Assembly (NCBI GenBank): GCA_964421755.1
Contig: CAYQYP010000204.1
Location: 9,746 to 73,745 of the forward strand
DNA: 64,000 nucleotides
Origin: an uncultured Acidobacteriota bacterium
Lineage (GTDB): Bacteria > Acidobacteriota > UBA6911 > RPQK01
Direction of reading: 5' to 3'
In this document: positions 21,235-47,579 of the stretch, piece after piece
How positions within the stretch are numbered: the first letter of the stretch is position 1
Layout of the letters: each line of letters begins with the position of its first letter
Translations under genes and position numbers: made by a program
The notes under the pieces: generated by a model
The model's database searches: none
The model's input: the letters and a program-made list of their open reading frames with translations, nothing else
What the model was told of the DNA's origin: nothing

Positions 21235-21271
21235 TCCTGTGAATCCGGTTAATCCTGTCTAAAGGCTTTTT

Positions 21272-21307
21272 GACAAGATTGACAAGACTAACAAGATTAA
21301 CGAGATC
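21272..21307. repeat. Four tandem imperfect 9-mers (GACAAGATT type) in the promoter region of the DUF547 gene.
   Basis: GACAAGATT GACAAGACT AACAAGATT AACGAGATC. They embed two TTGACA hexamers. A TAATCCTGT direct repeat lies just upstream at 21232-21258. Confidence 0.7.
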
Positions 21308-21328
21308 ACTGGCAACCGTGAGGACATC

Positions 21329-28442: not shown

Positions 28443-28467
28443 GCATCAAACAACGCGAGGAGTCACT

Positions 28468-30629: not shown

Positions 30630-32588
30630 ATGAGTCAGGCAGACGGTACCGCACTCCAGCATCTCGCCACTGAAACAACTTTCGATCGGCTCATCAAGGT
30701 GAGCCAGAAACTGCTGTTCCGGCGTGTCAGTCAGGTGGCGTTGGATGCCCTCGTCGTCGCCAGCGCTCTTTTTACTGCTTACCTGGTCCGATTTGACGGT
30801 GAGATCCCTGCGGACCACTACTCGCAGGTTCTGAGGCTGCTTGCCGTAACCCCGGTCCTGTACTTGGCAACGAGCTCCGTCGTGGGAGTTTACGGTCAGG
30901 TGTGGAGATACACCTGCTTGAGAGATATCCAATGCCTCGTTCTGTCAGTCGGCTGCAGTTCCCTGGTGGTTCTGGTCGTCCGAATAGCTGAACATCCGAT
31001 TGGTGGAACAGGTCTGCCGTTGGGCGTTGTGCTCCTCCAACCGATCCTGACGTGCGGAGGTTGGGTGGGCTGCAGGCTGTTACGACGGGTCATGTATCAC
31101 CGGACGGTTCCTAGTGATGTCGGACGGCGGGGTCTTATGGCCCGGCGACGGATGGTCCTTGTTGGGGCCGGGCAGGCAGGAGTGTACCTGGTTCGGGAGT
31201 TCCTGAAAGCGAAGCAGTCCGATCTTGTAGGGTTCCTGGATGACAATCCCGAGCTCCACGGCAGGAGGATCGAAGGACTGAAGGTACTGGGCAGCACTCG
31301 TGATTTGGAGAAGGTCGTCGCCCGGGAGAGGATAGGTGAAGTGGTCCTCAGCATGCCGAGCACCGCCCGCTCCGTCACTCTTTCCCTTGCTGACCGGTGC
31401 CGAAAGGCGGGAGTAAGAGTTTCGACGGTTCCATCCGTTACCGAAATACTTTCAGGCGAACTCGGCATAACCGAGATCCGCCCCGTCCAGATGGAGGATC
31501 TACTCGGACGATGCAGCGTCGACTGTTACGCCCCCCCTGAGTTCCTCAAGACCTATCGGGGCAAACGCATTATGGTGACCGGCGCGGGGGGATCGATCGG
31601 ATCGGAGCTGGTCAGACAACTGAGGAGGCTGGAACCCTCGTCATTGATCTTGCTCGACAAGGACGAAAACAGCCTCTACGAAACTGTCTTGGAGATTCAA
31701 GAAGATTTCGACAATGTGGCCGAGATCATCGCGGACATCAAGGATCAGGCGCGACTCAACAAGCTGTTTGGCGAGCTGATGCCACAGATCGTCTTTCACG
31801 CCGCCGCCTACAAGCATGTTCCACTCATGGAAACATGCCCGGCGCAGGCGGTTCAAAACAATGTCATCGGGACGCGCAACGTGGTGGCTGCAGCCGATCG
31901 CTTTGGCGTCGAGCGCTTCGTTCTGATCTCAACGGATAAGGCCGTGAACCCGTCGAGTGTCATGGGGGCGTCCAAACGAGTTGCTGAAATGATTGTCCAA
32001 GGCAGCGCCGCCCGCGACCGGCGTTACTGCAGCGTCCGGTTCGGCAACGTTCTGGGTAGTCGAGCGAGCGTTGTGCCTCTTTTTCAGAAGCGGATCAGAC
32101 AAGGCAAGACCATCCCGGTCACGCATCCCGATGTGGAGCGTTACTTCATGACGATTCCGGAAGCTGTCCACCTCGTCATCCAGGCCGGCTCTATAGGGCA
32201 AGGGGGCGAGATCTTCATGCTGGACATGGGAAAACCGGTCAAGATTATGGAGCTCGCCCGGAATCTGATCCGTCTGTCCGGCCTGGAGCCCGAAAAGGAC
32301 GTCCAGATCCAGATAACCGGAATGAGGGCGGGGGAGAAGCTCTATGAGCAGTTGATGGTCGACGGACAGGACACCATCTCCTCGACCAGACATCCGAAGA
32401 TTTTTGTGGTGCACGCGGCGTCTCCGGATCCCTTCCTGGTTCAGCAGCACTTGCGCCGGCTCGAAAAAGCTGCCGCCGACGACGACGATGCAGAGATCAG
32501 GAGACTCTTCGGCGGCCTCCGGATTGGGTACAAACCGCCCTCTCGCAGGGCTTACGGCAAGACGGCAGCATCTCTCCGGTTTAACTGA
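30630..32588 (+). CDS. CapD/WbpM/PglF-like membrane-anchored NDP-sugar 4,6-dehydratase (polysaccharide biosynthesis protein CapD).
   Basis: Four N-terminal transmembrane helices. Rossmann motif VTGAGGSIGSEL. Further motifs ISTDKAVNPSSVMGASKRVAE, RFGNVLGSRASVVPLF. Confidence 0.9.
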   Translation: MSQADGTALQHLATETTFDRLIKVSQKLLFRRVSQVALDALVVASALFTAYLVRFDGEIPADHYSQVLRLLAVTPVLYLATSSVVGVYGQVWRYTCLRDIQCLVLSVGCSSLVVLVVRIAEHPIGGTGLPLGVVLLQPILTCGGWVGCRLLRRVMYHRTVPSDVGRRGLMARRRMVLVGAGQAGVYLVREFLKAKQSDLVGFLDDNPELHGRRIEGLKVLGSTRDLEKVVARERIGEVVLSMPSTARSVTLSLADRCRKAGVRVSTVPSVTEILSGELGITEIRPVQMEDLLGRCSVDCYAPPEFLKTYRGKRIMVTGAGGSIGSELVRQLRRLEPSSLILLDKDENSLYETVLEIQEDFDNVAEIIADIKDQARLNKLFGELMPQIVFHAAAYKHVPLMETCPAQAVQNNVIGTRNVVAAADRFGVERFVLISTDKAVNPSSVMGASKRVAEMIVQGSAARDRRYCSVRFGNVLGSRASVVPLFQKRIRQGKTIPVTHPDVERYFMTIPEAVHLVIQAGSIGQGGEIFMLDMGKPVKIMELARNLIRLSGLEPEKDVQIQITGMRAGEKLYEQLMVDGQDTISSTRHPKIFVVHAASPDPFLVQQHLRRLEKAAADDDDAEIRRLFGGLRIGYKPPSRRAYGKTAASLRFN

Positions 32589-32606
32589 TACAAGCTCGGG
32601 TCCATT

Positions 32607-33902
32607 ATGTCCATAGCAATTGATGCCAGGAACATCTCGAAAATATACCGGATCGGTCGCGCCGAGCAGAAGCGCGACACGTTGGTTGGAGCCTGCATGA
32701 ACCTGGCTTCGATTCCTATCCGCAACTTGCGCCGACTTCGCAGTCTTTCGGTCTTCGGCGGGAACCAGGATGAAGAGGACACGATCTGGGCGCTCAAGGA
32801 TGTTACTTTCCAAGTCCACACTGGCGATGTTATCGGAATCGTAGGCCGCAACGGCTCCGGAAAATCCACTCTTCTGAAGGTCCTGTCCAGAATAACTCCG
32901 CCAACACGCGGTGAAGCGCGTATCTACGGGCGAATGAGCTCGCTTCTGGAGGTGGGAACAGGCTTTCATCCGGAGCTGAGCGGGCGCGAAAACCTCTACT
33001 TGAACGGTACGATTCTCGGCATGACCAAGGCTGAGATAGTCAAGAAATTCGACGAGATTGTCGACTTTGCGGGGGTTGAGAAGTTCATCGACACGCCCGT
33101 GAAACGGTACTCAAGCGGCATGAGGGTCCGCCTGGCCTTTGCGGTGGCCGCCCATCTGGAACCGGAAATCATGGTGGTTGATGAAGTGCTGGCCGTCGGC
33201 GACCTGGCATTTCAGAGGAAATGCCTTGGAAAGATGAACGAAGTGGGCGAATCCGGGCGGACTGTCCTTCTGGTTAGCCATCAAATGAGCCAGCTCCGTC
33301 GGCTCTGCAAGCGGGCCATTTGGATCGATGGGGGCGCGATTCAGAAGTTCGGCCCGACCGCAGAGGTTCTTGGGGCGTACGAGAAATCGATGAGCGGCGA
33401 CGAGAACCAGTCGTTGTGGACCGTCCGAGAATCGAGGCGCAAAGCCTCCTTTCTAGGCTGGGACATTGCAGAGCCCCAACCCAGGCAGCCGAACGTAGTC
33501 GAGACCCACGGCGCCGTTGTTGTCAGATTCCACCTGCAGGTAATGCAACCTATCCACGACGGCCACCACGACCTGTTTCTCTATGATGCTGAGGGACGGC
33601 TGGTCTGGGGAACGGTGGCGAGTGATCTCGAACTGGAGCCGGGAAAGCACGCATTTGTGTACACTCTCTCGAGTCTGCCACTTCGGCCTGGTTCTTACAG
33701 TTGGAGAGTCACCCTCTACGACAGGGCCACGGGCCTGATTGACCGCCAGAACTGTGTCCCGGAGCTGCTGATAGCCACCGAGCCCCTGGGCCACCCTCGG
33801 GATGAATGGGCAGGATTTCTAAACTTCCCACACACGTTTCGCGCGGTTCGCGACAACCATACTGCGCGGGCGGACAGGCCCGCCGTTTCAGTCACCCGAT
33901 AG
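32607..33902 (+). CDS. ABC transporter ATP-binding protein of the polysaccharide-export type (Wzt/TagH-like) with a ~170 aa C-terminal extension.
   Basis: Walker A GRNGSGKSTLLK. Signature YSSGMRVRLAF. Walker B MVVDEVLAVGD. An extra C-terminal domain (residues ~260-431) is predicted beta-rich (VVVRFHLQV...YSWRVTLYD). Confidence 0.85.
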   Translation: MSIAIDARNISKIYRIGRAEQKRDTLVGACMNLASIPIRNLRRLRSLSVFGGNQDEEDTIWALKDVTFQVHTGDVIGIVGRNGSGKSTLLKVLSRITPPTRGEARIYGRMSSLLEVGTGFHPELSGRENLYLNGTILGMTKAEIVKKFDEIVDFAGVEKFIDTPVKRYSSGMRVRLAFAVAAHLEPEIMVVDEVLAVGDLAFQRKCLGKMNEVGESGRTVLLVSHQMSQLRRLCKRAIWIDGGAIQKFGPTAEVLGAYEKSMSGDENQSLWTVRESRRKASFLGWDIAEPQPRQPNVVETHGAVVVRFHLQVMQPIHDGHHDLFLYDAEGRLVWGTVASDLELEPGKHAFVYTLSSLPLRPGSYSWRVTLYDRATGLIDRQNCVPELLIATEPLGHPRDEWAGFLNFPHTFRAVRDNHTARADRPAVSVTR

Positions 33903-33911
33903 TAAAAGCAA

Positions 33912-34784
33912 ATGAACATTAGTTCCCGGACTCTAATCGAACATGGCGGGCCGACTACATCGCGGCAACAGCCGGTGGCCGTCCTGACTCCGAGAGTCTC
34001 AGTGTTGCCCGACCGCAAGGAGCTTTGGCGCTATCGCGACCTTCTCTTCTTCCTGGTATGGCGGGATGTGAAAGCGCGGTATGCGCAGTCTGTGCTCGGC
34101 GTCGGCTGGGCAATAATACAGCCGCTCTTCTCGATGATCGTATTCACAGTGGTGTTCGGGTCACTTGCAAAGATTGACTCGGAGGGTCGCCCGTACGCGA
34201 TCTTCAGCTATACGGCGCTTGTCCCCTGGACTTACTTCTCAAACGCCGTCTCGACGAGCACAGGAAGCCTGATCACCAGTTCCGGCATGTTGAGCAAGGT
34301 CTACTTCCCGCGACTGATTATTCCGCTGACTCCGCTTCTCAGCAAGCTGATCGATTTCGGCGTGGGATTCTCAATCCTTTTCGTCTTGATGCTTTGGTTC
34401 CAGGTTACGCCCACATTGAACGCCCTTTACATACCCCTGCTGTTGATGGTTTTGATGCTGGCGGCTGGCGGGATGGGAATGTGGCTCACCTCTCTGGCAG
34501 TCCAATACCGGGATGTCAATTACGGGATTTCCTTTGGAATGCAACTCCTGATGTATGCGGCCCCAGTGGTCTATCCGGCCAGCCTCGTGCCAGACGCTTA
34601 TCGCAGCTTCTACGCGCTCAACCCCATGGTCGGGGTCATCGAAGGATTCCGCGCCGGCCTGCTTGGAACCACTCCAATGCCTTGGGATCTTATTGCTATC
34701 GGCAGTTGCACGGCCCTCCTTCTTTTTGTCACTGGCGCTCTCTTCTTTCGTCATAAGGAAGCTGCTTTCGCAGATGTCGTTTAG
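33912..34784 (+). CDS. ABC-2 type polysaccharide export permease (Wzm-like).
   Basis: Six transmembrane helices. Conserved N-terminal LWRYRDLLFFLVWRDVKARYAQSVLGVGWAIIQPL, typical of Wzm/KpsM/TagG. Confidence 0.85.
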   Translation: MNISSRTLIEHGGPTTSRQQPVAVLTPRVSVLPDRKELWRYRDLLFFLVWRDVKARYAQSVLGVGWAIIQPLFSMIVFTVVFGSLAKIDSEGRPYAIFSYTALVPWTYFSNAVSTSTGSLITSSGMLSKVYFPRLIIPLTPLLSKLIDFGVGFSILFVLMLWFQVTPTLNALYIPLLLMVLMLAAGGMGMWLTSLAVQYRDVNYGISFGMQLLMYAAPVVYPASLVPDAYRSFYALNPMVGVIEGFRAGLLGTTPMPWDLIAIGSCTALLLFVTGALFFRHKEAAFADVV

Positions 34785-34900
34785 CCCCCCGTCTAGCCCA
34801 CGTCTAGCCCGGATTCGCGCGTTGAACCCCCGGGTATGCCCGCCCGAGCTGCGCACGCAGCGAGGGCGCTGAAAATGCTGAAAATGATGCGGACCCGATC

Positions 34901-35716
34901 ATGGATATAGTGGCAGTCGTACCGGCAGGCGGGATGGGGACAAGAATTGCGCCGTCGCCCGTCAGTAAGGAGATCTTTCCCCTGGGCTTCTCGGTTCTTG
35001 ACGCTCAGTCGGCGCCCCGGCCGAAAGTCGCCCTTGAACACCTCTTCGAGAAGATGACCCGGGCTGGCATCCGGAAGGTGTACCTGGTGATTGGCAAGGG
35101 GAAGTGGGATATTCCTGCTTATACTGGGGATGGGTCGGCGTTCGGATTGGAAATCGCTTACCTGGTTCTTCGTGTCCCGTGGGGAGTTCCTTTCACAGTT
35201 GATCAGGCGTATCCGTTCGTCAGTAATTCCCTGGTCGCAATGGGCTTCGCGGATATCCTCTTTTCCCCAGATGACGCTTTTGTCCAGCTGATGGCGCTGT
35301 GCGAGGAAACCGCGGCCGATGTTGTTCTGGGCGTTGTCCCTGCGCCACGGGGCCGGAGGGTGGAACGTCTGGCGCTGGGCCCGGCCGGCCGTGTACAGGA
35401 GTTCGACATCAAGTCAGACCAGTCGCGCCTGGAGCACAGCTGGACGTGCTCCATCTGGAGGCCGCGGTTCTCCGATTTTCTGCACACTCACCTGAAGGGA
35501 AGACTTGAAGCCGGCGCCTCTCAACTTTTCGCCGAGGAGAGGGAACTCTGTCTGGGAGACGTTTTTCAGGCTGCTTCCGAAGGCGGGTTGGAAATCTGCG
35601 GTAAGGTCCTGTCTTCCGAACCGTACCTGGATATAGGCACGCCCGAGGATTTGCGGACCGCGATTCGACTCTGCACCGACTCGCAAACCCGTCCGGGCAA
35701 TCTCACCACTCAATAA
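34901..35716 (+). CDS. Sugar-phosphate nucleotidyltransferase family protein.
   Basis: N-terminal IVAVVPAGGMGTRIAP (the GxGxR NTP_transferase motif). Confidence 0.65.
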   Translation: MDIVAVVPAGGMGTRIAPSPVSKEIFPLGFSVLDAQSAPRPKVALEHLFEKMTRAGIRKVYLVIGKGKWDIPAYTGDGSAFGLEIAYLVLRVPWGVPFTVDQAYPFVSNSLVAMGFADILFSPDDAFVQLMALCEETAADVVLGVVPAPRGRRVERLALGPAGRVQEFDIKSDQSRLEHSWTCSIWRPRFSDFLHTHLKGRLEAGASQLFAEERELCLGDVFQAASEGGLEICGKVLSSEPYLDIGTPEDLRTAIRLCTDSQTRPGNLTTQ

Positions 35717-35734
35717 CAGGTTGGAGGTGGTCTC

Positions 35735-36577
35735 ATGGAGAGAGCCGACAATAAGATGAAGGTAATCATCTTAGCCGGGGGATTTGGATCACGGTTGTCT
35801 GAAGAAACCGTACTTCGACCCAAACCCATGGTCGAAATAGGTGGCAAGCCAATCCTCTGGCACATTCTGAACATCTACTCCGCTCACGGGTTCGACGAAT
35901 TCATAGTGGCGCTGGGCTACAAGGCGGAGGTGGTCAAGGAGTACTTCCTCAAGTTCTACGCCCTGAACAACGACATTTCCGTGGACCTGTCGACTGGAAA
36001 GACGGTAATCCACGATGGGAGACAACCCAGCTGGAAAGTGCATCTCGTGGATACCGGACTTCACACGCAGACCGGTGGTCGGCTGAAGCGGCTCAAATCT
36101 TGGCTCAAACCGGGGGAAGACTTCATGTTCACCTACGGAGACGGAGTCACCGATCTCGATATCCCCGCCTTGACCGCTTTTCACCGATCGCACGGCAAGT
36201 TGGGCACGGTGACGACGGTTCGATCACCCGAGCGATTCGGCAGGCTAGCTTTCCAGGGTGATCAGGTGACGGAATTCTACGAAAAGTCGGAGGCGAGCGA
36301 GGGGTGGATCAATGGTGGTTACTTCGTCCTCAATTACGACGCCATCGACTACATCGACGGGGACGACACCGCTTGGGAACGCACCCCTGTTGAAAGACTG
36401 GCCCACGACGGGCAGCTGGTCGGATATCGGCATTACGGTTTCTGGTCCTGCATGGACACGCTGCGCGAGAGGAATTCCCTTGAAGACCTCTGGAATTCGG
36501 GCAACGCGCCCTGGAGGATCTGGGACAAAAAGCAGCCAGGCGAACGGGAAATTCCGAAAATCATGGCGGTAGGATGA
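35735..36577 (+). CDS. rfbF: Glucose-1-phosphate cytidylyltransferase.
   Basis: MKVIILAGGFGSRLSEETVLRPKPMVEIGGKPILWHI...FTYGDGVTDLDI...GWINGGYFVL are the characteristic RfbF/DdhA blocks. GGAGGTGG Shine-Dalgarno before 35735. Confidence 0.9.
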   Translation: MERADNKMKVIILAGGFGSRLSEETVLRPKPMVEIGGKPILWHILNIYSAHGFDEFIVALGYKAEVVKEYFLKFYALNNDISVDLSTGKTVIHDGRQPSWKVHLVDTGLHTQTGGRLKRLKSWLKPGEDFMFTYGDGVTDLDIPALTAFHRSHGKLGTVTTVRSPERFGRLAFQGDQVTEFYEKSEASEGWINGGYFVLNYDAIDYIDGDDTAWERTPVERLAHDGQLVGYRHYGFWSCMDTLRERNSLEDLWNSGNAPWRIWDKKQPGEREIPKIMAVG

Positions 36578-37674
36578 TGAAGATACTAGTCACCGGCTCT
36601 GAAGGTTACATTGGCAGCGTTCTGACGGAAAAGTTGATGGCGCGTGGCCATCAGGTTCAGGGATTGGATACGGGCTATTACTCGGAAGTCTGCCTGTATC
36701 CGGTCGGACAGCCCAGCCGATTGCTAAGGAAAGATGTCCGGGAAGTCGTCACCAACGACCTCGAGGGTTTTGACGCCGTCGTGCATCTCGCCGAGCTTTC
36801 GAACGACCCCTTGGGGCAACATAACCCCGAAACGACCTACGAAATCAATCACCTCGGTTCGGTAGGGCTCGCTCGCAAGTGCAAAGAGGCGGGCGTAAGA
36901 CGTTTCGTGTACAGCTCCTCCTGTAGCGTCTATGGCGCAGGCTCCGATGAGCTCAAGACCGAAGAGTCCACCACCGCGCCGCAGACCGCCTACGCGCACT
37001 GCAAACTGCTGGTCGAACGGGATGTTTCCGCGCTCGCGGATAGCCGCTTCTGTCCCACATTCCTTCGAAACGCTACGGCCTATGGGCCGTCCCCCCGAAT
37101 CCGCTTCGACCTGGTCCTGAACAATCTGGCAGGGCTTGCATGGACGGCAGGGGAGATCAGGATGACCAGCGATGGGAGCCCACTCAGGCCCCTCGTTCAT
37201 GTCGAGGACATCTCCGAAGCGTTTTGCTGTGTGCTGGAAGCGCCCGAGGATGTAATTCATTGCCAGGTGTTCAACGTGGGAGACAACCGGCAGAATTATC
37301 GAGTCCGGGAGATAGCAGACATCGTTGGAGGGGTTTTCACCGGCTGCAACGTGACTTTCGGTCAGAATAATGGAGACAAGCGCAGCTACCGCGTTTGTTT
37401 CGACAAAATCAATTCCTCATTGCCGGGATTTCGGTGCCGCCTCGATGCTCGGCAGGGCGCCGCCCAACTGCTTCTGGTGTTTCGGCAGCTGAAGATGAGC
37501 CGAGAAGTTTTCGAGTTCCGCACCTTCACTCGTCTCAAGCAACTGGAGTACCTGCTTGGCTTGTCGCAGATAGACAGCCACTTCCTCTGGAAGAACAGGT
37601 CGCCCGAACCTACGGCTGGCGAAGGACTTTCTGTTCTGTTCGCGGCGACTGCAGCTGCTCGGGGATCGCTATGA
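36574..37674 (+). CDS. NAD-dependent epimerase/dehydratase (extended SDR) acting on an NDP-sugar.
   Basis: ILVTGSEGYIGSVL Rossmann motif. YAHCKLLVE (YxxxK). ATGA overlap with rfbF. Confidence 0.8.
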   Translation: MMKILVTGSEGYIGSVLTEKLMARGHQVQGLDTGYYSEVCLYPVGQPSRLLRKDVREVVTNDLEGFDAVVHLAELSNDPLGQHNPETTYEINHLGSVGLARKCKEAGVRRFVYSSSCSVYGAGSDELKTEESTTAPQTAYAHCKLLVERDVSALADSRFCPTFLRNATAYGPSPRIRFDLVLNNLAGLAWTAGEIRMTSDGSPLRPLVHVEDISEAFCCVLEAPEDVIHCQVFNVGDNRQNYRVREIADIVGGVFTGCNVTFGQNNGDKRSYRVCFDKINSSLPGFRCRLDARQGAAQLLLVFRQLKMSREVFEFRTFTRLKQLEYLLGLSQIDSHFLWKNRSPEPTAGEGLSVLFAATAAARGSL

Positions 37675-38927
37675 AGCTCGATTGTCGGTTTTGCGGCGCC
37701 TCCCTACGACATGTTTTCCTTGATCTGGGAATGTCGCCGCTAGCGAATTCTTATGTCAAGGCTGAGGACCTGAACAAACCGGAGAAGTTCTACCCGCTCT
37801 GTGTCTATATCTGTGAGGCCTGTTTCCTCGTTCAGCTTCCTGAATGTGAAAGCCCCGACCAGATCTTCTCAGATTATGCCTATTTCTCGTCCTTTTCGGC
37901 TTCGTGGCTTCAGCACGCGCGCGACTATACGGGGATGGTAATTGACCGACTCAAGTTGGACAAATTCAGCCGGGTCGTCGAAATAGCCAGTAATGATGGC
38001 TACCTGCTCCAGTATTTCGTCGAAAAAGGAATCCCGTGTTACGGAGTCGAGCCCGCCAGGAATGTTGCCTCTGCTGCCATAGACCGAGGCGTTCCAACCG
38101 TTGTGGAGTTCTTCTCGACTCAGAAGGCCGAAGAGCTCAAGAGTCAGGGGAAAGAGGCGGATCTTGTGATCGGTAACAACGTGCTTGCGCATGTTCCGCG
38201 TCTGAATGACTTCGTTGAAGGATTGAAGGTTCTGCTGAAGCCCTCGGGGACGATTACGATGGAGTTTCCCCATCTGCTCCGCCTGATGGAGGAGAACCAG
38301 TTCGACACCATCTACCACGAGCACTACTCCTACTTCTCCCTTTTCACTGTTCGCCGAATCTTCGCCAGTCATGGTTTGACCCTCTATGACGTTGAGCGAC
38401 TCTCTACACATGGCGGGTCGTTGCGCATCTACGGTTGTCATACCGGGCAGGAACCAGCGAAAGTCAGCGCACAAGTTTCCGAGCTTCTCTCCCTGGAGGA
38501 AGAGGCCGGACTGACACAGTTAAATACGTACGTGCAATTTCGACAAAAGGTCCTGGATACGAAAATAGGACTGGTCGAGTTCCTCATTTCCGCGAAGCGG
38601 CGCGGTAAGAAAGTTGCAGCGTACGGCGCCCCGGCAAAAGGCAACACCTTGCTCAATGTGTGCGGCATCCGGTCGGATTTGATCGACTACACGGTCGACC
38701 TATCGCCTCACAAGCAGGGTTTGTATCTGCCTGGCACTCACATTCCCATCTATGCTCCGAACGAGGTAGGACGGACCAGGCCCGACTACCTCTTGATATT
38801 GCCCTGGAACCTCAGAAGGGAAATAACCGAGCAGATGAGCTTCATACGGGAGTGGGGAGGCCAGTTCGTGGTACCGGTTCCCCAACTGGAAATCATTGCG
38901 GATGCTTCCGCGAGGGCAACCGGGTGA
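37671..38927 (+). CDS. SAM-dependent sugar C-methyltransferase family protein (Zn-ribbon plus Methyltransf_13/14 architecture, TylC3/EvaC-like).
   Basis: Start at ATG 37671 (ATGA overlap). N-terminal Zn ribbon CRFCGASL...CVYICEACFLVQ. SAM motif VVEIASNDGYLL. C-terminal domain typical of NDP-hexose C-methyltransferases. Confidence 0.7.
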   Translation: MKLDCRFCGASLRHVFLDLGMSPLANSYVKAEDLNKPEKFYPLCVYICEACFLVQLPECESPDQIFSDYAYFSSFSASWLQHARDYTGMVIDRLKLDKFSRVVEIASNDGYLLQYFVEKGIPCYGVEPARNVASAAIDRGVPTVVEFFSTQKAEELKSQGKEADLVIGNNVLAHVPRLNDFVEGLKVLLKPSGTITMEFPHLLRLMEENQFDTIYHEHYSYFSLFTVRRIFASHGLTLYDVERLSTHGGSLRIYGCHTGQEPAKVSAQVSELLSLEEEAGLTQLNTYVQFRQKVLDTKIGLVEFLISAKRRGKKVAAYGAPAKGNTLLNVCGIRSDLIDYTVDLSPHKQGLYLPGTHIPIYAPNEVGRTRPDYLLILPWNLRREITEQMSFIREWGGQFVVPVPQLEIIADASARATG

Positions 38928-39490
38928 AGTTCGAGGAAACCAGGCTCAAAGGCGCTTTTCTCATCCGTGCGACACCGTTCGAGGATGAACGGGGCTTCTT
39001 CGCCCGGACGTATTGTGAAAAGGAATTCGCGAGCCACGGGTTGAATCCCCGCGTGGTGCAGTGCAGTGTCTCCTACAGCAGAAAAAGAGGCACCCTGCGA
39101 GGTCTTCACTTTCAGAAGGCCCCGCACCGGGAGGCGAAGCTGATTCGCTGTGCTAGAGGAGCGATTTACGACGTCATCGTGGACCTGAGGCCGGAATCAT
39201 CCACGTTCTGCCAATGGCTTTCCGTGAATCTGTCCGCTGCCGAAGCGCACCCCCTGATGCTCTATGTCCCCGAGGGTTTCGCCCACGGTTTTCAGACCTT
39301 GGAGGACCACACCGAAGTTCACTACCAGATGTCCGAGTTCTATCAGGCGGAAAGCGCCAGCGGCGTTCGCTGGAACGATCCGGCCTTTAGCATCGACTGG
39401 CCGATCTCTGAAGTCACCATGTCAAACAGAGACGCCAATTACCCGGATTTCCGGGCTTTAATCGAGACAGGAGTCAATGGCGTCAGTTGA
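38923..39490 (+). CDS. dTDP-4-dehydrorhamnose 3,5-epimerase family (RmlC-like cupin) NDP-sugar epimerase.
   Basis: GTG start overlapping the upstream stop (GTGA). FEDERGFFARTY...LRGLHFQ...EAKLIRCARGAIYDVIVDLR...YVPEGFAHGF are the RmlC catalytic blocks. Confidence 0.8.
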
Positions 39491-40790
39491 AGTAGCGACC
39501 GAGTTGGATCGGGCAAATACGACCGGGGAGGAGATGATGAGCTTCATCTCCGGTCTATATCCCATTTGCCGCAGTATCACCGGCGAAGGCGTCCGGGAAA
39601 CGCTTCGGCGTATTGCAGCCCATATCCCCTTGACGGTTACCGAGGTCCCGAGCGGCACCGAAGTTTTTGACTGGGTTGTCCCTCAAGAATGGAACATCAA
39701 CGACGCTTACATAAAGGACAGTTCGGGACGGAGAGTCGTGGACTTCAAAGCGTCAAACCTCCATGTCGTAGGTTATAGCATTCCGGTCCGAACACGGGTG
39801 ACCCTTGAGAAGCTCAGGTCGCATCTTTTCAGCCTCCCGGAACATCCAGACTGGGTTCCCTACCGTACCTCCTACTACAATCAGACGTGGGGCTTCTGCC
39901 TGAGCGACCGAACGCTCGGTCAGTTGAAGGAGGAGGAGTACGAAGTCTGCATCGACTCCTCGCTGAAGGACGGATCACTGACCTACGCGGAATTCCTGAT
40001 CCCTGGACAGGCGCCCGAGGAAGTGCTCATCTCCTGTCACACCTGTCACCCCTCCCTCTGCAATGACAATCTGTCGGGCATCGCCGTCGCGACTTTTCTT
40101 GCCAAGGCGCTGAACAGCATGTCCGGATTGCGATTCTCTTACCGGTTCCTGTTCATACCCGGGACGATTGGGTCCATAACCTGGCTGGCTCGAAATCTAG
40201 AAAACCTTGGCAAGATCAAGCATGGCTTGGTTCTTGCGAACATGGGGGACCCGGGTGGCTTCGTCTACAAAAAGAGCCGACGGGGGAACGCCGAGATCGA
40301 TCGGGCCATGGCTCACCTCTTGAGTGGCTGTGGTGAGGTCCGGGAATTCGAGCCTTACGGGTATGACGAAAGGCAGTTTTGCTCCCCGGGTATCAATTTG
40401 CCCGTCGGCTGTCTATCCAGGACGCCTTTCGGCGAATTCGAGGAGTACCACACGTCTGCCGATAACTTGGATTTCGTCAGACCGGAGGCCCTCGACTCTT
40501 CGCTGCTGCTCTGTCTTTCTCTGGTGGAAGTACTCGAGGGCAACACACGCTTTGTCAACCTGAACCCCATGTGTGAGCCGCAGCTTGGTCGACGGGGGCT
40601 TTACCGGACGACCGGCGGGCAGAGGAGCCGAGAGGACGATCTGGCCCTGCTCTGGGTCCTGAACCTTTCCGATGGCCTGCACGACCTACTCGATGTCGCC
40701 GTGCGCTCCGGGTTGCCTTTCGAGTTGATCCGGCGCGCTGCCGATCGCCTGACAGGCTGCGGTCTGCTGTCGCCTGCTCTCCAGTCATAG
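39477..40790 (+). CDS. DUF4910/DUF2172 aminopeptidase-like (M28-fold) protein, common in NDP-aminosugar operons.
   Basis: N-terminus MMSFISGLYPICRSITGEGVRETLRRIAAHIPLTVTEVPSGTEVFDWVVPQEWN. C-terminal winged-helix-like tail. Confidence 0.55.
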   Translation: MASVEVATELDRANTTGEEMMSFISGLYPICRSITGEGVRETLRRIAAHIPLTVTEVPSGTEVFDWVVPQEWNINDAYIKDSSGRRVVDFKASNLHVVGYSIPVRTRVTLEKLRSHLFSLPEHPDWVPYRTSYYNQTWGFCLSDRTLGQLKEEEYEVCIDSSLKDGSLTYAEFLIPGQAPEEVLISCHTCHPSLCNDNLSGIAVATFLAKALNSMSGLRFSYRFLFIPGTIGSITWLARNLENLGKIKHGLVLANMGDPGGFVYKKSRRGNAEIDRAMAHLLSGCGEVREFEPYGYDERQFCSPGINLPVGCLSRTPFGEFEEYHTSADNLDFVRPEALDSSLLLCLSLVEVLEGNTRFVNLNPMCEPQLGRRGLYRTTGGQRSREDDLALLWVLNLSDGLHDLLDVAVRSGLPFELIRRAADRLTGCGLLSPALQS

Positions 40791-40816
40791 AAGGGCTTTT
40801 CCCGACCTTACCGATA

Positions 40817-42034
40817 ATGAAAAAGAGCGAAACTGTGAGACTTCTCCTTCTGCCTCAGCGAGTCGCTGGGCGGATCCGCCGTCTCGCTTACAACCGTCTG
40901 TACCGACCCTCTGGAGTGGGCCGCCTTCCGGAGGTGTCCGCCGAGCCGGCAAGAGGTGACTACAGGATTACGGTAAGACCGGATGCCAGTGCCGAGCACG
41001 CGATTTATGTTGTCCGGAACGGCCGGCTGCTGACCGACTGCCTCAACAGCATTGCCGTTATCAATGAAAGAAACAAGCTGGTATCGGGCGCCTCCTGGCA
41101 GTGGGGGGGGCTGGAAAGCGGCATCCTGAAGGATGAAGAGAACGCCGTCTTCGCGGCCCAGTTCTCGGCCCGGCCGAAACCTTACACAGAGACTGTTTTT
41201 TCCCTTTGGACGGGAGGCGGGGGCGACGGCAACCTCTTCCACTGGCTGTTTGACGCCTTGCCGAGGCTACATCTCCTCCAGCTATCGGGACTCCGTGACC
41301 AACCCGACCTTTTCGCAGTCCCTTGGCTGAAGTTTCCTTTTCAGAGGCAATCGCTTTCTCTGCTTGGCTTGAGTGACGACCGGTTTATAGAAAGCCGGTC
41401 GGTCCCGCACGTCAAAGCAAAGAAGATTCTCGCCACCGACCACCCGAGGGGTAACACCTCTTTGGTTCCAGCCTGGATATGCAAGTTCTTACGGCAGACC
41501 TTTCTGGCCTTACTCCCTCCTCCGCCGGTAAAGACCCGGAGGATTTATCTCTCGCGTAACGATTCCCTAAGTTCCCGGCGAATAGTGAATGAGCCTGATC
41601 TGGTCCGACGCCTTTCACACGAGGGTTTCACAAGCGTGACGGCGACGGATTTTTCGTTCGCCGAACAGGCGAGTCTTTTTCACAACGCGGAGATCATCGT
41701 GTCACCTCACGGCGCTGGTCTCTCCAATCTGGTCTTCTGCAGGCCCGGAACGAGGGTGATAGAGATCTTCTCGTCAGCATGGTGGCTCCCGATGTTCGAA
41801 GCTATTTCCAGCCACTTGAATCTAGCGTACAGCAGGTTTGCAGGGTCACCGAGTACAGAGGGTTCCGAGGTTCCCCGGAAGGCGCTCAAGACCGACATCC
41901 GTGTGGATGTCGACAAGCTGTTCGCCACTGTCGAAGCCTTGGACAAGGGTTTTCCCGTCCATTCAGGTGCGAGCAATTCTGAAACGATAGACACGCCGGG
42001 AAACCTTGCCGGCCTTGAACAAAAAGGAAACTGA
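40817..42034 (+). CDS. DUF563/GT61-like glycosyltransferase.
   Basis: C-terminal half RIYLSRNDSLSSRRIVNEPDLVRRLSHEGFTSVTATDFSFAEQASLFHNAEIIVSPHGAGLSNLVFCRPGTRVIEIF is the GT61/DUF563 signature region. Confidence 0.6.
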   Translation: MKKSETVRLLLLPQRVAGRIRRLAYNRLYRPSGVGRLPEVSAEPARGDYRITVRPDASAEHAIYVVRNGRLLTDCLNSIAVINERNKLVSGASWQWGGLESGILKDEENAVFAAQFSARPKPYTETVFSLWTGGGGDGNLFHWLFDALPRLHLLQLSGLRDQPDLFAVPWLKFPFQRQSLSLLGLSDDRFIESRSVPHVKAKKILATDHPRGNTSLVPAWICKFLRQTFLALLPPPPVKTRRIYLSRNDSLSSRRIVNEPDLVRRLSHEGFTSVTATDFSFAEQASLFHNAEIIVSPHGAGLSNLVFCRPGTRVIEIFSSAWWLPMFEAISSHLNLAYSRFAGSPSTEGSEVPRKALKTDIRVDVDKLFATVEALDKGFPVHSGASNSETIDTPGNLAGLEQKGN

Positions 42035-43345
42035 GTGAGACAAGCAACAATCCTCGGAGCGGGTATATCCGGACTGACCACTTCCTTTTTCATGGGGCAC
42101 GAGAATTGTTTGATTTACGAGTCGAAACCCTATTACGGCGGCCATATTTACAGCGAGATTCGAGACGGCTTCACCTGGGACGACGGCCCCCATGTCTCGT
42201 TCACCGAAAGCGAATTCGTACAGGAATTATTCGCCGAAAGTGTCGGTGGTGCATTCGAGGAATTCGAAACGATCGTTGGGAACTACCACCAGGGGCACTG
42301 GCTCGATCATCCGGCTCAATCCAACCTGTACCAGGTGCCCGAACCCCTACGAACGAAGTGTCTCGAGAGCTTCCTCGAAGCCAGGAAGAGCGAGCCTTTC
42401 ACGGACTTGCCGGGTGACTACCGCGAATGGCTGCACCGCGCGTTTGGCCCCGTCTTTGCCGACACCTTCCCCGCAGCGTACACGAGGAAATACTGGACGA
42501 CGGAACCGGAGAACCTGGGAGTGGACTGGATTGGGAAGAGGATCTTCTATCCCGAGGTGGAGGATGTGCGGGCCGGGTATTTCGGGCCGCTTCAACGGAA
42601 GACTTACTGGGTGAAGAAGTTCCGTTACCCCTCGAACGGTGGATTTCTAGCCTATGCGCACCGGTTTGCCAAGGGGGCTCAAATCAACTACTGCAAGACA
42701 GTCCAACGCATCCATTTCGGGCGCCGTGAACTTCGCTTCCACGACGGGTCGGAAGCCAGCTACGAAGCATTGATATCGACGCTGCCGCTTCCCGTCCTGA
42801 TCAAAGCCGCCGAGGACGTCCCGGACGACGTCAGGGATGCGGCTGCGGCTCTCCGATGCACGAACTTCCTCCAGGTTGAGGTTGCCGTAAGACACCCCTG
42901 TCCGCGGCCGGAACAGTGGATTTATGTTTACGACGAGGACAAGCTGAGTACCCGGATCAGCGTGACGGAGCATTTCTCCCCCAACAACGCGCCGAAAGGT
43001 ATGTCCGGGTTGGCCGTGGAGGTGTACGGCTCGGATTACCGCCCGCTTCCCGCGCAGCCCGGTTGGGGCTCGGTCGGGGAAAGAGTGAAGACCGAGTTGA
43101 TCCAGATGGGACTGATCGAGAACGCCGCCGCGATAGCTTCCAGTCACGTGCGCTATTCGCCCTGGGGAAACGTGATTTTCGATCATCAGCGACGTGGGGC
43201 GCTGAAGACAATCAATGACTTTCTGGACGGGGTGGGGGTCACGAGAATCGGTCGGTTCGCCGAATGGAAGTACCTCATGACCCACGACTGCGCCTTGCAC
43301 AGCAGACGGGTCGCTGAAGGACTGAAAACGATGGTCAACGCCTAG
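42035..43345 (+). CDS. FAD/NAD(P)-binding oxidoreductase of the amine-oxidase / UDP-galactopyranose-mutase-like superfamily.
   Basis: GTG start directly after the upstream stop. Dinucleotide-binding ATILGAGISGLTTSF...YESKPYYGGHIYS. Confidence 0.6.
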   Translation: MRQATILGAGISGLTTSFFMGHENCLIYESKPYYGGHIYSEIRDGFTWDDGPHVSFTESEFVQELFAESVGGAFEEFETIVGNYHQGHWLDHPAQSNLYQVPEPLRTKCLESFLEARKSEPFTDLPGDYREWLHRAFGPVFADTFPAAYTRKYWTTEPENLGVDWIGKRIFYPEVEDVRAGYFGPLQRKTYWVKKFRYPSNGGFLAYAHRFAKGAQINYCKTVQRIHFGRRELRFHDGSEASYEALISTLPLPVLIKAAEDVPDDVRDAAAALRCTNFLQVEVAVRHPCPRPEQWIYVYDEDKLSTRISVTEHFSPNNAPKGMSGLAVEVYGSDYRPLPAQPGWGSVGERVKTELIQMGLIENAAAIASSHVRYSPWGNVIFDHQRRGALKTINDFLDGVGVTRIGRFAEWKYLMTHDCALHSRRVAEGLKTMVNA

Positions 43346-46534: not shown

Positions 46535-46569
46535 TGATTCCAATTCACGCCTTTTCCCCATACTCACAT

Positions 46570-47559: not shown

Positions 47560-47579
47560 CCCTCAAGGATCTGACAGAC

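What the first reader, a model, noticed from the sequence alone, without database searches (positions are those of the whole stretch)
34901..40790. CDP-glucose-based deoxysugar sub-operon with a C-methyltransferase, an RmlC-like epimerase and a DUF4910 peptidase-fold protein
The genes run in the order nucleotidyltransferase, RfbF (glucose-1-P cytidylyltransferase), an extended-SDR epimerase/dehydratase, a Zn-ribbon SAM C-methyltransferase of the TylC3/EvaC type, an RmlC-like 3,5-epimerase and a DUF4910 M28-fold protein. They are chained by ATGA/GTGA overlaps. The combination predicts a rare C-methyl-branched, CDP-activated deoxyhexose, like yersiniose or virenose. The DUF4910 protein is a recurrent but biochemically uncharacterised passenger of such operons. 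It may act on the sugar (for example amide or ester formation or hydrolysis) rather than on peptides.
Basis: partly seen in the sequence, partly recalled or inferred. Interest (0 to 1): 0.6.

Follow-up and report, generated by a model that had tools for sequence, protein, structure and literature searches.

The report
C-methyl sugar cassette with DUF4910 partner
Six genes inside a large surface-polysaccharide cluster look set to build a rare methyl-branched sugar from CDP-glucose; the set is a widespread cassette already noted in 2014, it lacks a recognisable deoxygenating enzyme, and its zinc "peptidase-like" member (DUF4910) still has no known reaction.

Summary
Six co-directional genes at 34901-40790 encode a divergent nucleotidyltransferase (NT1), RfbF, an extended SDR, a TylC3/TcaB9-type sugar C-methyltransferase, an RmlC-like epimerase and a DUF4910/DUF2172/HTH_47 protein. 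Three junctions are ATGA/GTGA overlaps.

In about 100 related loci from many phyla, the last five genes form a conserved cassette. Among 36 loci with at least 5 kb on both sides of DUF4910:
- the methyltransferase is present in 34;
- the epimerase is present in 31, directly upstream of DUF4910 in 30;
- the SDR is present in 29;
- an RfbF-type transferase is present in 30.

- CDP activation and C-methylation are well supported.
- "Deoxysugar" is not. The SDR lacks the acid/base pair of 4,6-dehydratases and does not match the RfbG model. Its nearest relatives are GalE-type enzymes and a chain I recall as Cj1427, a C4 dehydrogenase. No dehydratase lies in the 64 kb window.
- In a few relatives a canonical CDP-glucose 4,6-dehydratase occupies the SDR's slot, so the SDR probably makes the 4-keto sugar.
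- Yersiniose is a poor analogy. CDP-cillose/cereose is closer.

The link between DUF4910 and sugar pathways was published in 2014, and its chemistry is still unknown. This is a new member of a known kind, of moderate interest.

The parts
34901..35716 (+). NT1: a divergent RmlA-like sugar-1-phosphate nucleotidyltransferase (271 aa). It is an accessory second nucleotidyltransferase and not part of the universal cassette.
   Evidence: PF00483 at 21.4 bits. Best solved relatives are glucose-1-P thymidylyltransferases at E 8e-5. The GGxGTR and SK motifs are present in the sequence. Homologues of 42-75% identity occur in only 6 related loci: L013, L048, L069, L073, L101 and L103.
35735..36577 (+). 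RfbF, glucose-1-phosphate cytidylyltransferase (280 aa). It makes CDP-D-glucose.
   Evidence: TIGR02623 equivalog, 362.4 bits against a cut-off of 300.25. A GGAGG ribosome-binding site lies upstream.
36574..37674 (+). Extended SDR of the 'SSCSxYG' family (366 aa). Proposed NAD-dependent enzyme that forms the C4 keto group. It is not a canonical 4,6-dehydratase.
   Evidence: PF01370, E 2.5e-43. The best curated model is GalE, below its cut-off, and TIGR02622 does not match. The best solved relative is 6VO6, E 2.4e-24, and shares the AT-x-x-G-x-SPR-x-R-x-DL motif. Family-invariant residues are D32, S115-S116-C117-S118, Y140 and K144. The gene occupies the slot that canonical RfbG fills in L003, L009 and L084.
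37671..38927 (+). NDP-hexose C-methyltransferase of the TylC3/TcaB9/KijD1/MtmC type (418 aa).
   Evidence: Methyltransf_13, Methyltransf_23 and Methyltransf_14. PDB 4RV9 at E 5.9e-90, 5T64 at 1e-65, 3NDI at 6e-65. C5, C8, C48 and C51, plus Y69, H174, Y215, E217 and H218, align with KijD1 residues.
38924..39490 (+). RmlC-like NDP-4-ketohexose 3,5- (or 5-) epimerase (188 aa, GTG start).
   Evidence: TIGR01221, 177.7 bits against a cut-off of 155.75. PDB 3RYK at E 1e-45. H62, K72, Y134 and D170 are present.
39477..40790 (+). DUF4910/DUF2172/HTH_47 protein (437 aa). It is a cytoplasmic, mono-zinc, M28-fold non-peptidase whose reaction is unknown.
   Evidence: Pfam matches. PDB 3K9T (CA_C2195) at E 1e-145. 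H191, D197 and H325 are invariant, with S193 and P228 at the M28 catalytic positions. The AF2 model has pLDDT 83.6 and TM 0.85 to 3K9T. No signal peptide or membrane segment.
40817..42034 (+). GT61-family glycosyltransferase, a candidate transferase for the product sugar (context only).
   Evidence: PF04577, E 8.5e-31. Conserved in the nearest relative L013.
42035..43345 (+). Flavoprotein resembling UDP-galactopyranose mutase (context only). It may be a pyranose/furanose mutase.
   Evidence: PDB 4DSG at E 5e-29 and other 'UDP-galactopyranose mutase' chains. A homologue follows DUF4910 in L005, L013 and L058, and an Amino_oxidase gene sits in the same place in L101.
32607..34784 (+). Wzt (with a weak Wzt_C domain match) and Wzm, an ABC exporter immediately upstream (context only).
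   Evidence: ABC_tran plus Wzt_C (24.7 bits, below the Pfam cut-off of 30.4), and ABC2_membrane. Wzm/Wzt lie near the cassette in 10 of 36 well-flanked loci.

Best explanation
Genes 35735-40790 are one copy of a widespread five-gene cassette that makes a C-methyl-branched CDP-hexose for the surrounding ABC-exported polysaccharide.

Proposed steps:
1. RfbF makes CDP-D-glucose.
2. The 'SSCSxYG' SDR, an NAD-type GalE/Cj1427-like enzyme, oxidises C4 to give a CDP-4-ketohexose. It lacks the dehydratase acid/base pair, so loss of the 6-hydroxyl is not assured and the product may keep it.
3. The TylC3/TcaB9-type methyltransferase adds a methyl group to the carbon next to the keto group, most likely C3.
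4. The RmlC-like enzyme inverts C5, and C3 too if that carbon is still free.
5. DUF4910, a cytoplasmic mono-zinc enzyme translationally coupled to the epimerase, performs a further step on the keto-sugar nucleotide. That step is not a peptidase reaction and is not yet identified.
6. The window encodes no dedicated final 4-ketoreductase or aminotransferase. The keto group is therefore either reduced by NADH retained on the SDR, reduced by the MtmC-like methyltransferase, or handled by an unlinked enzyme.

NT1 (34901-35716) is an accessory second nucleotidyltransferase, probably for another sugar of the glycan.

Shown here: gene identities, retained catalytic residues and conserved linkage. Inferred: every chemical step.
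For: - Family assignments and cut-offs.
- Methyltransferase: solved sugar 3-C-methyltransferases at E 6e-90 to 6e-65, with zinc and catalytic residues conserved.
- Cassette conservation across Nitrospira, Chloroflexota, Gemmatimonadota, Actinomycetota, Ignavibacteriota, rhizobia and Streptomyces. Of 36 loci with at least 5 kb on both sides, 34 hold the MT, 31 RmlC, 29 the SDR, 30 a nucleotidyltransferase, and 23 hold all four.
- Reciprocal check: three look-ups that started from SDR homologues all returned MT, RmlC and DUF4910.
- SDR as the keto-forming enzyme:
  - Asp32 at the end of beta-2 indicates NAD, by established SDR cofactor rules.
  - Its nearest solved relatives are 6VO6 (which I recall as the C4 dehydrogenase Cj1427) and chains deposited as UDP-sugar 4-epimerases or generic epimerase/dehydratase proteins; a curated 4-ketoreductase model (RmlD, TIGR01214) scores far lower.
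  - Cj1427's function is given in PMC10680097.
  - Canonical CDP-glucose 4,6-dehydratases (motifs SSDKAYG and TSDKCY) fill its slot upstream of the MT in L003, L009 and L084.
  - 21 of 27 complete SDR-type loci also carry a separate last-step enzyme, either adh_short, SDR2 or a class-III aminotransferase.
- DUF4910 as an in-pathway cytoplasmic enzyme:
  - Zn ligands are invariant.
  - There is no signal peptide or membrane segment.
  - RmlC lies directly upstream in 67 of 86 loci. The two genes overlap by 4 nt in 24 of 71 cases and lie within 20 nt in 67 of 71.
  - The linkage holds whichever export system or glycosyltransferases flank the cassette.
- MtmC's dual methyltransferase and 4-ketoreductase activity: PMC10269268.
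Against: - No step has been tested biochemically.
- The RmlC-like protein is far closer to true dTDP-4-dehydrorhamnose epimerases (E 1e-45) than to epimerases acting on 6-hydroxylated heptoses (E about 1e-12).
- All characterised homologues of the methyltransferase act on 6-deoxy substrates. The downstream enzymes are equally similar in RfbG-type and SDR-type cassettes. Both points favour a 6-deoxy substrate.
- A dehydratase or reductase could lie outside the 64 kb window.
- Identity to 6VO6 is low, and its identification as Cj1427 rests on my memory plus the depositor's molecule name.
- DUF4910 is not needed for C-methylation as such. S. meliloti pSymB has rfbF-rfbG-MT without it, and no Bacillus record is among the 42 plasmid records with a DUF4910 match.
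Confidence: 0.55

Rival explanations
1. Classical 6-deoxy route. A CDP-glucose 4,6-dehydratase encoded elsewhere in the genome supplies CDP-4-keto-6-deoxyglucose. The SDR at 36574-37674 is the terminal 4-ketoreductase. The product is a CDP-6-deoxy-3-C-methyl-hexose like cillose or cereose, but C5-epimerised.
For: - The methyltransferase and the RmlC-like enzyme are closest to enzymes that use 6-deoxy-4-keto substrates.
- The window has only one SDR in the cassette and no other reductase.
- Some relatives do use RfbG.
Against: - 29 of 36 well-flanked cassettes carry this SDR and 30 their own nucleotidyltransferase; only L003, L009 and L084 among all loci hold a recognisable RfbG-type dehydratase.
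- The SDR sits in the RfbG slot, not the reductase slot.
- 21 of 27 complete loci have an additional reductase or aminotransferase.
- The SDR has the NAD-type Asp32. Its nearest relatives are 4-epimerases and a C4 dehydrogenase, while the RmlD model scores far lower.
Confidence: 0.2
2. The 'SSCSxYG' SDR is a non-canonical CDP-glucose 4,6-dehydratase that uses other residues, for example Cys117, for the elimination. The cassette would then be self-sufficient and the product 6-deoxy.
For: - The SDR is interchangeable with canonical RfbG in the same slot. MT, RmlC and DUF4910 remain 54-64% identical to the window's in the RfbG-type loci L003, L009 and L084, much as in SDR-type loci. This suggests the same intermediate.
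- Cys117 is invariant at the position of the dehydratase Asp.
Against: - Both acid/base positions are Cys and Ser.
- No dehydratase model matches.
- The closest solved relative, 6VO6, is from my memory a C4 dehydrogenase that oxidises without dehydrating.
Confidence: 0.2
3. DUF4910 does not act on the nucleotide sugar. It either works after glycosyl transfer, for example as a deacylase or amidase on the lipid-linked or finished glycan, or it is a true peptidase or regulator that merely travels with the operon.
For: - It has an M28 fold with an intact single Zn site and a PA-like lid domain, typical of hydrolases.
- Das et al. list amidase and transacylase options.
- C-methyl sugar cassettes work without it in S. 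meliloti, and the PLSDB Bacillus plasmids that carry the methyltransferase have no DUF4910 match.
Against: - It has no signal peptide or membrane segment.
- It is embedded among nucleotide-sugar genes and overlaps the epimerase gene, not glycosyltransferase genes.
- The linkage is independent of the export system.
- The M28 catalytic Asp and Glu are replaced by Ser and Pro.
- No conserved target protein is nearby.
Confidence: 0.25

Closest known systems
CDP-cillose / CDP-cereose pathway of Bacillus cereus (cytidylyltransferase, CDP-glucose 4,6-dehydratase, C-methyltransferase, reductase). The operon details are from my memory of Li et al. 2017 J Biol Chem. The existence of the two CDP sugars is cited from PMC7725333.
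   Same: Both start from CDP-glucose and use a TylC3-type C-methyltransferase. Methyltransferases on Bacillus cereus-group plasmids are the closest plasmid-borne homologues, at 54-56% identity.
   Different: The window has no recognisable 4,6-dehydratase and no dedicated reductase. It adds an RmlC-like epimerase and DUF4910.
Campylobacter jejuni capsular heptose pathway: Cj1427 C4 dehydrogenase, Cj1430 C3/C5 epimerase and Cj1428 C4 reductase (PMC10680097).
   Same: Both pair an extended SDR that is not a dehydratase with an RmlC-fold epimerase. The best solved relative of the window SDR is 6VO6, which from memory is Cj1427.
   Different: The C. jejuni pathway uses a GDP-heptose rather than a CDP-hexose, and has no methyltransferase and no DUF4910. 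Identity is low. Dependence on 2-oxoglutarate is untested here.
CA_C2195 of Clostridium acetobutylicum (PDB 3K9T) and the DUF4910 gene neighbourhoods described by Das et al. 2014 (PMC4000134).
   Same: Both have the same three-domain architecture. The HMMER match is E 1e-145 and Foldseek reports 49% identity. The Zn ligands are the same and the M28 catalytic residues are lost in the same way. Both are linked to a sugar epimerase/dehydratase, a nucleotidyltransferase and a methylase.
   Different: CA_C2195 sits in a nonulosonic-acid/Maf-type locus. The window copy sits in a defined NTase-SDR-C-MT-RmlC cassette, in which the RmlC gene nearly always directly precedes DUF4910.
Sinorhizobium meliloti pSymB rfbF-rfbG-methyltransferase trio (SMb21416-21418).
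   Same: Both have RfbF and a C-methyltransferase, which is 51% identical.
   Different: The S. meliloti trio has a canonical RfbG and has neither RmlC nor DUF4910. This shows that the RmlC/DUF4910 pair is an add-on to the basic C-methyl route.
dTDP-mycarose/olivose enzymes TylC3, MtmC, TcaB9 and KijD1.
   Same: They share the fold, the zinc ribbon and the catalytic residues. MtmC is also a 4-ketoreductase.
   Different: Those enzymes use dTDP-2,6-dideoxy or 3-amino substrates in antibiotic pathways. The regiochemistry and nucleotide specificity here are unknown.

Membership tests
Glucose-1-phosphate cytidylyltransferase (RfbF, TIGR02623) | Score above the curated equivalog cut-off over the full length | tested here: met
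   362.4 bits against 300.25, profile positions 1-255 of 255.
Glucose-1-phosphate cytidylyltransferase (RfbF, TIGR02623) | CTP- and glucose-1-P-specific activity | not testable with these tools
   Needs an enzyme assay.
NDP-hexose 4,6-dehydratase (RfbG TIGR02622, RmlB, GMD) | Match to a dehydratase model at or near its cut-off | tested here: not met
   TIGR02622 is absent from the hits. TIGR01181 scores 46 bits against a cut-off of 365. The best model is GalE at 106 bits.
NDP-hexose 4,6-dehydratase (RfbG TIGR02622, RmlB, GMD) | Acid/base pair directly after the catalytic Thr/Ser (Asp-Glu, Ser-Glu or Asp-Lys) | tested here: not met
   The window has S116-C117-S118-V-Y120-G, invariant in 47 family members. 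L003, L009 and L084 show SSDKAYG or TSDKCY in the same operon slot. The residue roles are from established knowledge of RmlB and RfbG.
Cj1427-type NDP-sugar C4 dehydrogenase | Sequence relationship and shared subfamily motifs | tested here: inconclusive
   6VO6 is the best solved relative, but only at E 2.4e-24. The AT-x-x-G-x-SPR-x-R-x-DL motif is shared. That 6VO6 is Cj1427 rests on memory plus the molecule name.
Cj1427-type NDP-sugar C4 dehydrogenase | Tightly bound NADH recycled by 2-oxoglutarate, and release of the 4-keto product | not testable with these tools
   The property is described in PMC10680097 and needs biochemistry.
Sugar C-methyltransferase (TylC3/TcaB9/KijD1/MtmC) | Zinc ribbon, class I SAM domain and C-terminal Methyltransf_14 domain | tested here: met
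   PF08421 at 83.7 bits, PF13489 at 61.4 bits and PF08484 at 214.3 bits.
Sugar C-methyltransferase (TylC3/TcaB9/KijD1/MtmC) | Four Zn cysteines and the catalytic Tyr/His/Tyr/Glu/His set | tested here: met
   C5, C8, C48, C51, Y69, H174, Y215, E217 and H218 align with KijD1 C15, C18, C56, C59, Y78, H183, Y224, E226 and H227. The catalytic roles are from my memory of the TcaB9 mutant studies.
Sugar C-methyltransferase (TylC3/TcaB9/KijD1/MtmC) | Site of methylation (C3 or C5) and nucleotide specificity | not testable with these tools
   Needs NMR of the product.
RmlC 3,5-epimerase (TIGR01221, PF00908) | Score above the equivalog cut-off, plus the His/Lys/Tyr/Asp catalytic residues | tested here: met
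   177.7 bits against 155.75. H62, K72, Y134 and D170 are present. The residue roles are from established RmlC literature. The nucleotide is probably CDP rather than dTDP, which was not tested.
DUF4910 / CA_C2195 family | DUF4910 with an inserted DUF2172 domain and a C-terminal HTH_47 domain | tested here: met
   E 7.6e-109, 4.9e-40 and 1.2e-25. 3K9T matches at E 1e-145. The model has TM 0.85-0.88 to 3K9T.
DUF4910 / CA_C2195 family | Single Zn site (His, Asp, His), with Ser and Pro replacing the M28 catalytic Asp and Glu | tested here: met
   H191, D197, H325, S193 and P228 are invariant in 23 sequences.
Peptidase M28 (co-catalytic zinc aminopeptidases) | Five metal ligands for two Zn ions, plus the catalytic Asp and Glu | tested here: not met
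   Only three ligands are kept and the catalytic positions are Ser and Pro. There is no PF04389 match at E up to 1e-3.

The most novel reading that the evidence does not exclude
The cassette is a self-contained route from CDP-glucose to a C-methyl-branched hexose. A Cj1427-like SDR oxidises C4 without removing the 6-hydroxyl. DUF4910 is a new kind of zinc enzyme of nucleotide-sugar metabolism that acts on the tertiary alpha-hydroxy-ketone made by the methyltransferase, for example by a metal-assisted ketol rearrangement, isomerisation or ring change. The product would then be a branched sugar not yet described, made by thousands of environmental bacteria.
Probability: 0.2. Interest if true: 0.7.

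Novelty: new member of a known kind. Interest (0 to 1): 0.45.

Why it matters
DUF4910 proteins are very common and strongly conserved.
- More than 8000 90%-identity clusters match at E up to 1e-10, a figure capped by the search.
- The listed relatives are about 54-65% identical to the window protein and come from at least six phyla.

They have had a crystal structure since 2009 and no known reaction. This analysis narrows the question. The protein belongs to a defined five-gene cassette. It is coupled to an RmlC-like epimerase. It is dispensable for C-methylation itself. It occurs in culturable, genetically tractable hosts (Shinella, Streptomyces, Sinorhizobium fredii NGR234). That makes its function directly testable.

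The analysis also flags an abundant SDR family that may form 4-keto CDP-hexoses without the usual dehydratase residues. If confirmed, that would change how such operons are annotated, because 'deoxysugar' is currently assumed by default.

Tried and rejected
- Promoter and terminator scan of 32000-43000. The counts did not exceed those in shuffled sequence, so it says nothing about sub-operon boundaries.
- Literature searches for DUF4910, DUF2172 and CA_C2195. Only the 2014 structural paper and incidental mentions turned up, with no biochemical characterisation. A search for 'aminopeptidase-like' with cytidylyltransferase and C-methyltransferase returned nothing relevant.
- Fold search of the AlphaFold model against the PDB (entries to April 2026). 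Only 3K9T is close. The rest are PA-domain M28 aminopeptidases, the transferrin receptor and GCPII, so there is no newer characterised relative.
- E. coli complete genomes. There was no DNA-level match to the DUF4910 gene, so no link to a chemically known E. coli O-antigen.
- Species-representative genome scan with the single protein. It gave only 10 loci and did not find the source organism. The metagenome scan with an alignment was needed.
- Confirming that 6VO6 is Cj1427. The structural paper PMC7509852 is not held and a text search for the code found nothing relevant. The assignment therefore stays partly from memory.
- Idea that DUF4910 supplies the missing dehydration step. Rejected, because DUF4910 is equally present where a canonical RfbG is present (L003, L009, L084).
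- Idea that NT1 is a core member. Rejected, because it appears in only 6 related loci.
- The Bacillus plasmid neighbourhood could not be read, because the PLSDB gene table there is incomplete.

Full report
**Observation.** Pfam and NCBIfam assign them as follows.
- 34901-35716 is a weak NTP_transferase (21.4 bits), here called NT1.
- 35735-36577 is glucose-1-phosphate cytidylyltransferase RfbF (TIGR02623, 362 bits, cut-off 300).
- 36574-37674 is an extended SDR (PF01370, E 2.5e-43).
- 37671-38927 is a three-domain methyltransferase (Methyltransf_13, Methyltransf_23 and Methyltransf_14).
- 38924-39490 is an RmlC-type epimerase (TIGR01221, 178 bits, cut-off 156).
- 39477-40790 is a DUF4910/DUF2172/HTH_47 protein.

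The junctions RfbF/SDR and SDR/MT are ATGA overlaps and MT/RmlC is a GTGA overlap. RmlC/DUF4910 overlap by 14 nt. NT1/RfbF are separated by 18 nt that contain a GGAGG site.

The genes lie inside one long co-directional polysaccharide cluster running from about 26.5 kb to beyond 62.7 kb.
- Upstream are a PglF-like dehydratase, a Wzz/tyrosine-kinase protein, and Wzt and Wzm.
- Downstream are GT61, a flavoprotein, GT2, a metallo-beta-lactamase-fold protein, a carbamoyltransferase, several more glycosyltransferases and a Wzy_C protein.

A consensus scan found no promoter or terminator signal above background around the six genes.

**The methyltransferase.** Its best solved relatives are sugar C-methyltransferases.
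- 4RV9, 'D-mycarose 3-C-methyltransferase', matches at E 5.9e-90. From memory this is MtmC.
- 5T64 (KijD1) matches at E 1e-65.
- 3NDI (TcaB9) matches at E 6e-65.

The four zinc-ribbon cysteines (C5, C8, C48, C51) and Y69, H174, Y215, E217 and H218 align with KijD1 Y78, H183, Y224, E226 and H227. From memory, these are the residues probed in the TcaB9 mutant structures listed. Whether it methylates C3 or C5 cannot be told from sequence.

**The SDR, and the word 'deoxysugar'.** The SDR does not match the CDP-glucose 4,6-dehydratase model at all. Its best curated model is GalE, at 106 bits and below cut-off.

Its best solved relative is 6VO6 at E 2.4e-24, deposited as 'putative sugar-nucleotide epimerase/dehydratease'. 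From memory this is Cj1427, the C4 dehydrogenase of C. jejuni that oxidises a GDP-heptose without dehydrating it (PMC10680097). The next hits are largely chains deposited as UDP-sugar 4-epimerases, with some generically named SDRs and two entries called dTDP-glucose 4,6-dehydratase.

In 47 family members taken from related loci the motif S115-S116-C117-S118-x-Y-G is invariant. The two positions after the catalytic Ser, which carry Asp-Glu in RmlB and Asp-Lys in RfbG, are Cys and Ser. Asp32 at the end of beta-2 indicates NAD rather than NADP.

No other candidate dehydratase exists in the 64 kb window, apart from the membrane-anchored PglF-like UDP-GlcNAc enzyme. The 6-deoxy character of the product is therefore unproven.

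**Comparative genomics.** Loci were collected in four ways.
- Exact look-ups placed the window in two JGI metagenome contigs.
- A scan of species-representative genomes gave 10 loci.
- A metagenome scan with a DUF4910 alignment gave 80 loci.
- Look-ups of single homologues gave more.

tblastn with the window proteins shows that RfbF-type transferase, SDR, methyltransferase, RmlC-like epimerase and DUF4910 travel together, in varying order, in many lineages. These include Nitrospira, Chloroflexota, Gemmatimonadota, Actinomycetota and Ignavibacteriota. On plasmids and chromids the cassette occurs in Shinella and Streptomyces, and DUF4910 itself also in Rhizobium, Sinorhizobium fredii (including NGR234) and Mesorhizobium.

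Of 36 loci with at least 5 kb on both sides, 34 have the methyltransferase and 31 the epimerase. In 30 of those the epimerase is directly upstream of DUF4910. The SDR is present in 29, a transferase in 30, and all four in 23.

The epimerase gene directly precedes DUF4910 in 67 of 86 loci with enough upstream sequence. A 4-nt overlap is the commonest junction, in 24 of 71 cases. In that count the start codon was chosen nearest to the stop, which biases the distances downward.

Three look-ups that started from SDR homologues all returned the full cassette.

**Variants that inform mechanism.**
- *A canonical dehydratase in the SDR slot.* In L003 (Nitrospira), L009 and L084 the 'SSCS' SDR is missing. 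An RfbG-type SDR carrying the dehydratase motif (SSDKAYG or TSDKCY) sits in its place just upstream of the methyltransferase. In L003 its top model is TIGR02622, at 206 bits and below the 278-bit cut-off.
- *A separate last-step enzyme.* Of 27 complete SDR-type loci, 21 also carry one. It is a classical SDR of the adh_short type, an extended NADPH-type 'SDR2', or a class-III aminotransferase. Six lack one, including the window's closest relative L013.

Together these argue that the 'SSCS' SDR is the enzyme that creates the 4-keto group, not the terminal reductase.

- *The majority variant.* It uses an RfbF-related transferase that scores below the equivalog cut-off (205-216 bits), paired with a PIG-L family deacetylase found in 48 loci. 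The window has neither.
- *Cassettes without DUF4910.* The C-methyltransferase clade also occurs without RmlC and DUF4910. S. meliloti pSymB has only rfbF-rfbG-methyltransferase. Bacillus cereus-group plasmids carry the closest plasmid homologues at 54-56% identity.

RmlC and DUF4910 are therefore an add-on pair, not part of the methylation chemistry itself.

**DUF4910.** The protein matches CA_C2195 (PDB 3K9T) at E 1e-145.
- The Zn ligands H191, D197 and H325 are invariant in a 23-sequence alignment. So are S193 and P228, which replace the catalytic Asp and Glu of M28 peptidases.
- An AlphaFold model (pLDDT 83.6) superposes on 3K9T with TM 0.85-0.88. The next structural neighbours are PA-domain M28 aminopeptidases, the transferrin receptor and glutamate carboxypeptidase II. 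No newer characterised relative exists in the PDB up to April 2026.
- There is no signal peptide or membrane segment.

Das et al. 2014 (PMC4000134) had already concluded from gene neighbourhoods that the family is not a peptidase and takes part in making a modified surface carbohydrate. I found no later biochemical work.

What this analysis adds is the defined cassette, the tight coupling to the epimerase gene, and the independence from the export system and glycosyltransferase type. These favour a cytoplasmic step on the nucleotide sugar. Which step that is remains inference.

Because the strongest partner is the C-methyltransferase (34 of 36 loci), I favour a reaction on the methylated 4-keto intermediate. 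A metal-assisted isomerisation or ketol rearrangement is chemically attractive, but there is no direct evidence for it.

**Most likely mechanism.**
1. RfbF makes CDP-glucose.
2. The SDR oxidises C4, with or without loss of the 6-hydroxyl.
3. The methyltransferase adds the methyl group, probably at C3.
4. The RmlC-like enzyme epimerises C5.
5. DUF4910 carries out an unknown zinc-dependent step.
6. The keto group is reduced. In the window this would be done by NADH held on the SDR, by the MtmC-like methyltransferase (MtmC is a proven methyltransferase and 4-ketoreductase; PMC10269268), or by an unlinked enzyme.
7. A glycosyltransferase such as GT61 or GT2 uses the product.

NT1 is a divergent RmlA-like transferase that recurs in only six related loci. 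It is probably for another sugar.

**Comparison with what is known.** The closest characterised pathway in logic is CDP-cillose/cereose in Bacillus cereus (PMC7725333; operon details from memory). For the SDR and epimerase pair, the closest is the C. jejuni heptose pathway. From my own knowledge, yersiniose has a two-carbon branch from a thiamine-dependent enzyme and virenose has been proposed to follow a different nucleotide route, so both are weaker analogies.

**Verdict.** The feature is real and the annotation is largely correct. It is a new member of a known, published but biochemically uncharacterised kind of operon. The unexpected points are the missing dehydratase and the strength of the RmlC/DUF4910 pairing. 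Interest is moderate (0.45).

Noticed in passing
window 42035-43345 (+): The flavoprotein downstream of GT61 is most similar to chains deposited as UDP-galactopyranose mutase (PDB 4DSG at E 5e-29, 3UKA and others; from memory, eukaryote-type enzymes), not to amine oxidases. A homologue directly follows DUF4910 in L005 and L058 and lies close to it in L013, L101 and L009. A furanose form of one sugar of the glycan, possibly the branched one, is therefore plausible.
   Followed up: partly
related loci L004-L107 (e.g. L107 12195-12848; L014 8786-9442): A PIG-L family deacetylase is present in 48 related loci. It is almost always paired with an RfbF-like transferase that scores below the TIGR02623 cut-off. 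The majority cassette may therefore start from an N-acetylated sugar. The window variant has a true RfbF and no PIG-L.
   Followed up: partly
related loci (e.g. L107 5362-6738; L019 17826-19181): A class-III aminotransferase annotated as glutamate-1-semialdehyde aminomutase (PRK06209, 755 bits) sits in 14 cassettes, where others have a reductase. This hints at an amino variant of the branched sugar.
   Followed up: partly
window 34785-34900: The 116-nt spacer between wzm and NT1 holds two short tandem direct repeats, CGTCTAGCCC (twice) and GCTGAAAAT (twice). Their meaning is unknown.
   Followed up: no
window 28321-30582, 32607-34784, 56829-58142: The same cluster carries a Wzz/tyrosine-kinase protein, a Wzm/Wzt ABC exporter whose Wzt has a weak match to the C-terminal Wzt_C domain (24.7 bits, below the 30.4 cut-off), and a Wzy_C (O-antigen ligase/polymerase-like) protein. 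Parts of both export routes are present. From general knowledge, Wzt_C domains recognise a chain-terminating cap on the non-reducing end, and the rare sugar could be that cap.
   Followed up: no
window 44526-49427: A block of a metallo-beta-lactamase-fold protein, two proteins with no family match (45434-46534, 46534-47559) and a carbamoyltransferase is conserved with the cassette in L013. This suggests O-carbamoylation of the glycan.
   Followed up: no
window 20254-22207 (+): A radical SAM protein with a DUF3641 C-terminal domain is followed by a DUF547 protein, just upstream of the polysaccharide cluster. From memory this domain pair resembles arsenosugar-type radical SAM enzymes. This was not checked.
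   Followed up: no
NC_012586.1 (S. fredii NGR234 pNGR234b) 1331920-1333173; CP132317.1 519550-520869: DUF4910 homologues of 54-58% identity lie on megaplasmids of well-studied, genetically tractable rhizobia and Shinella. In Shinella the full cassette is annotated (SDR, DUF4910, rfbC, methyltransferase, cytidylyltransferase, PIG-L). These are ready-made experimental systems.
   Followed up: partly
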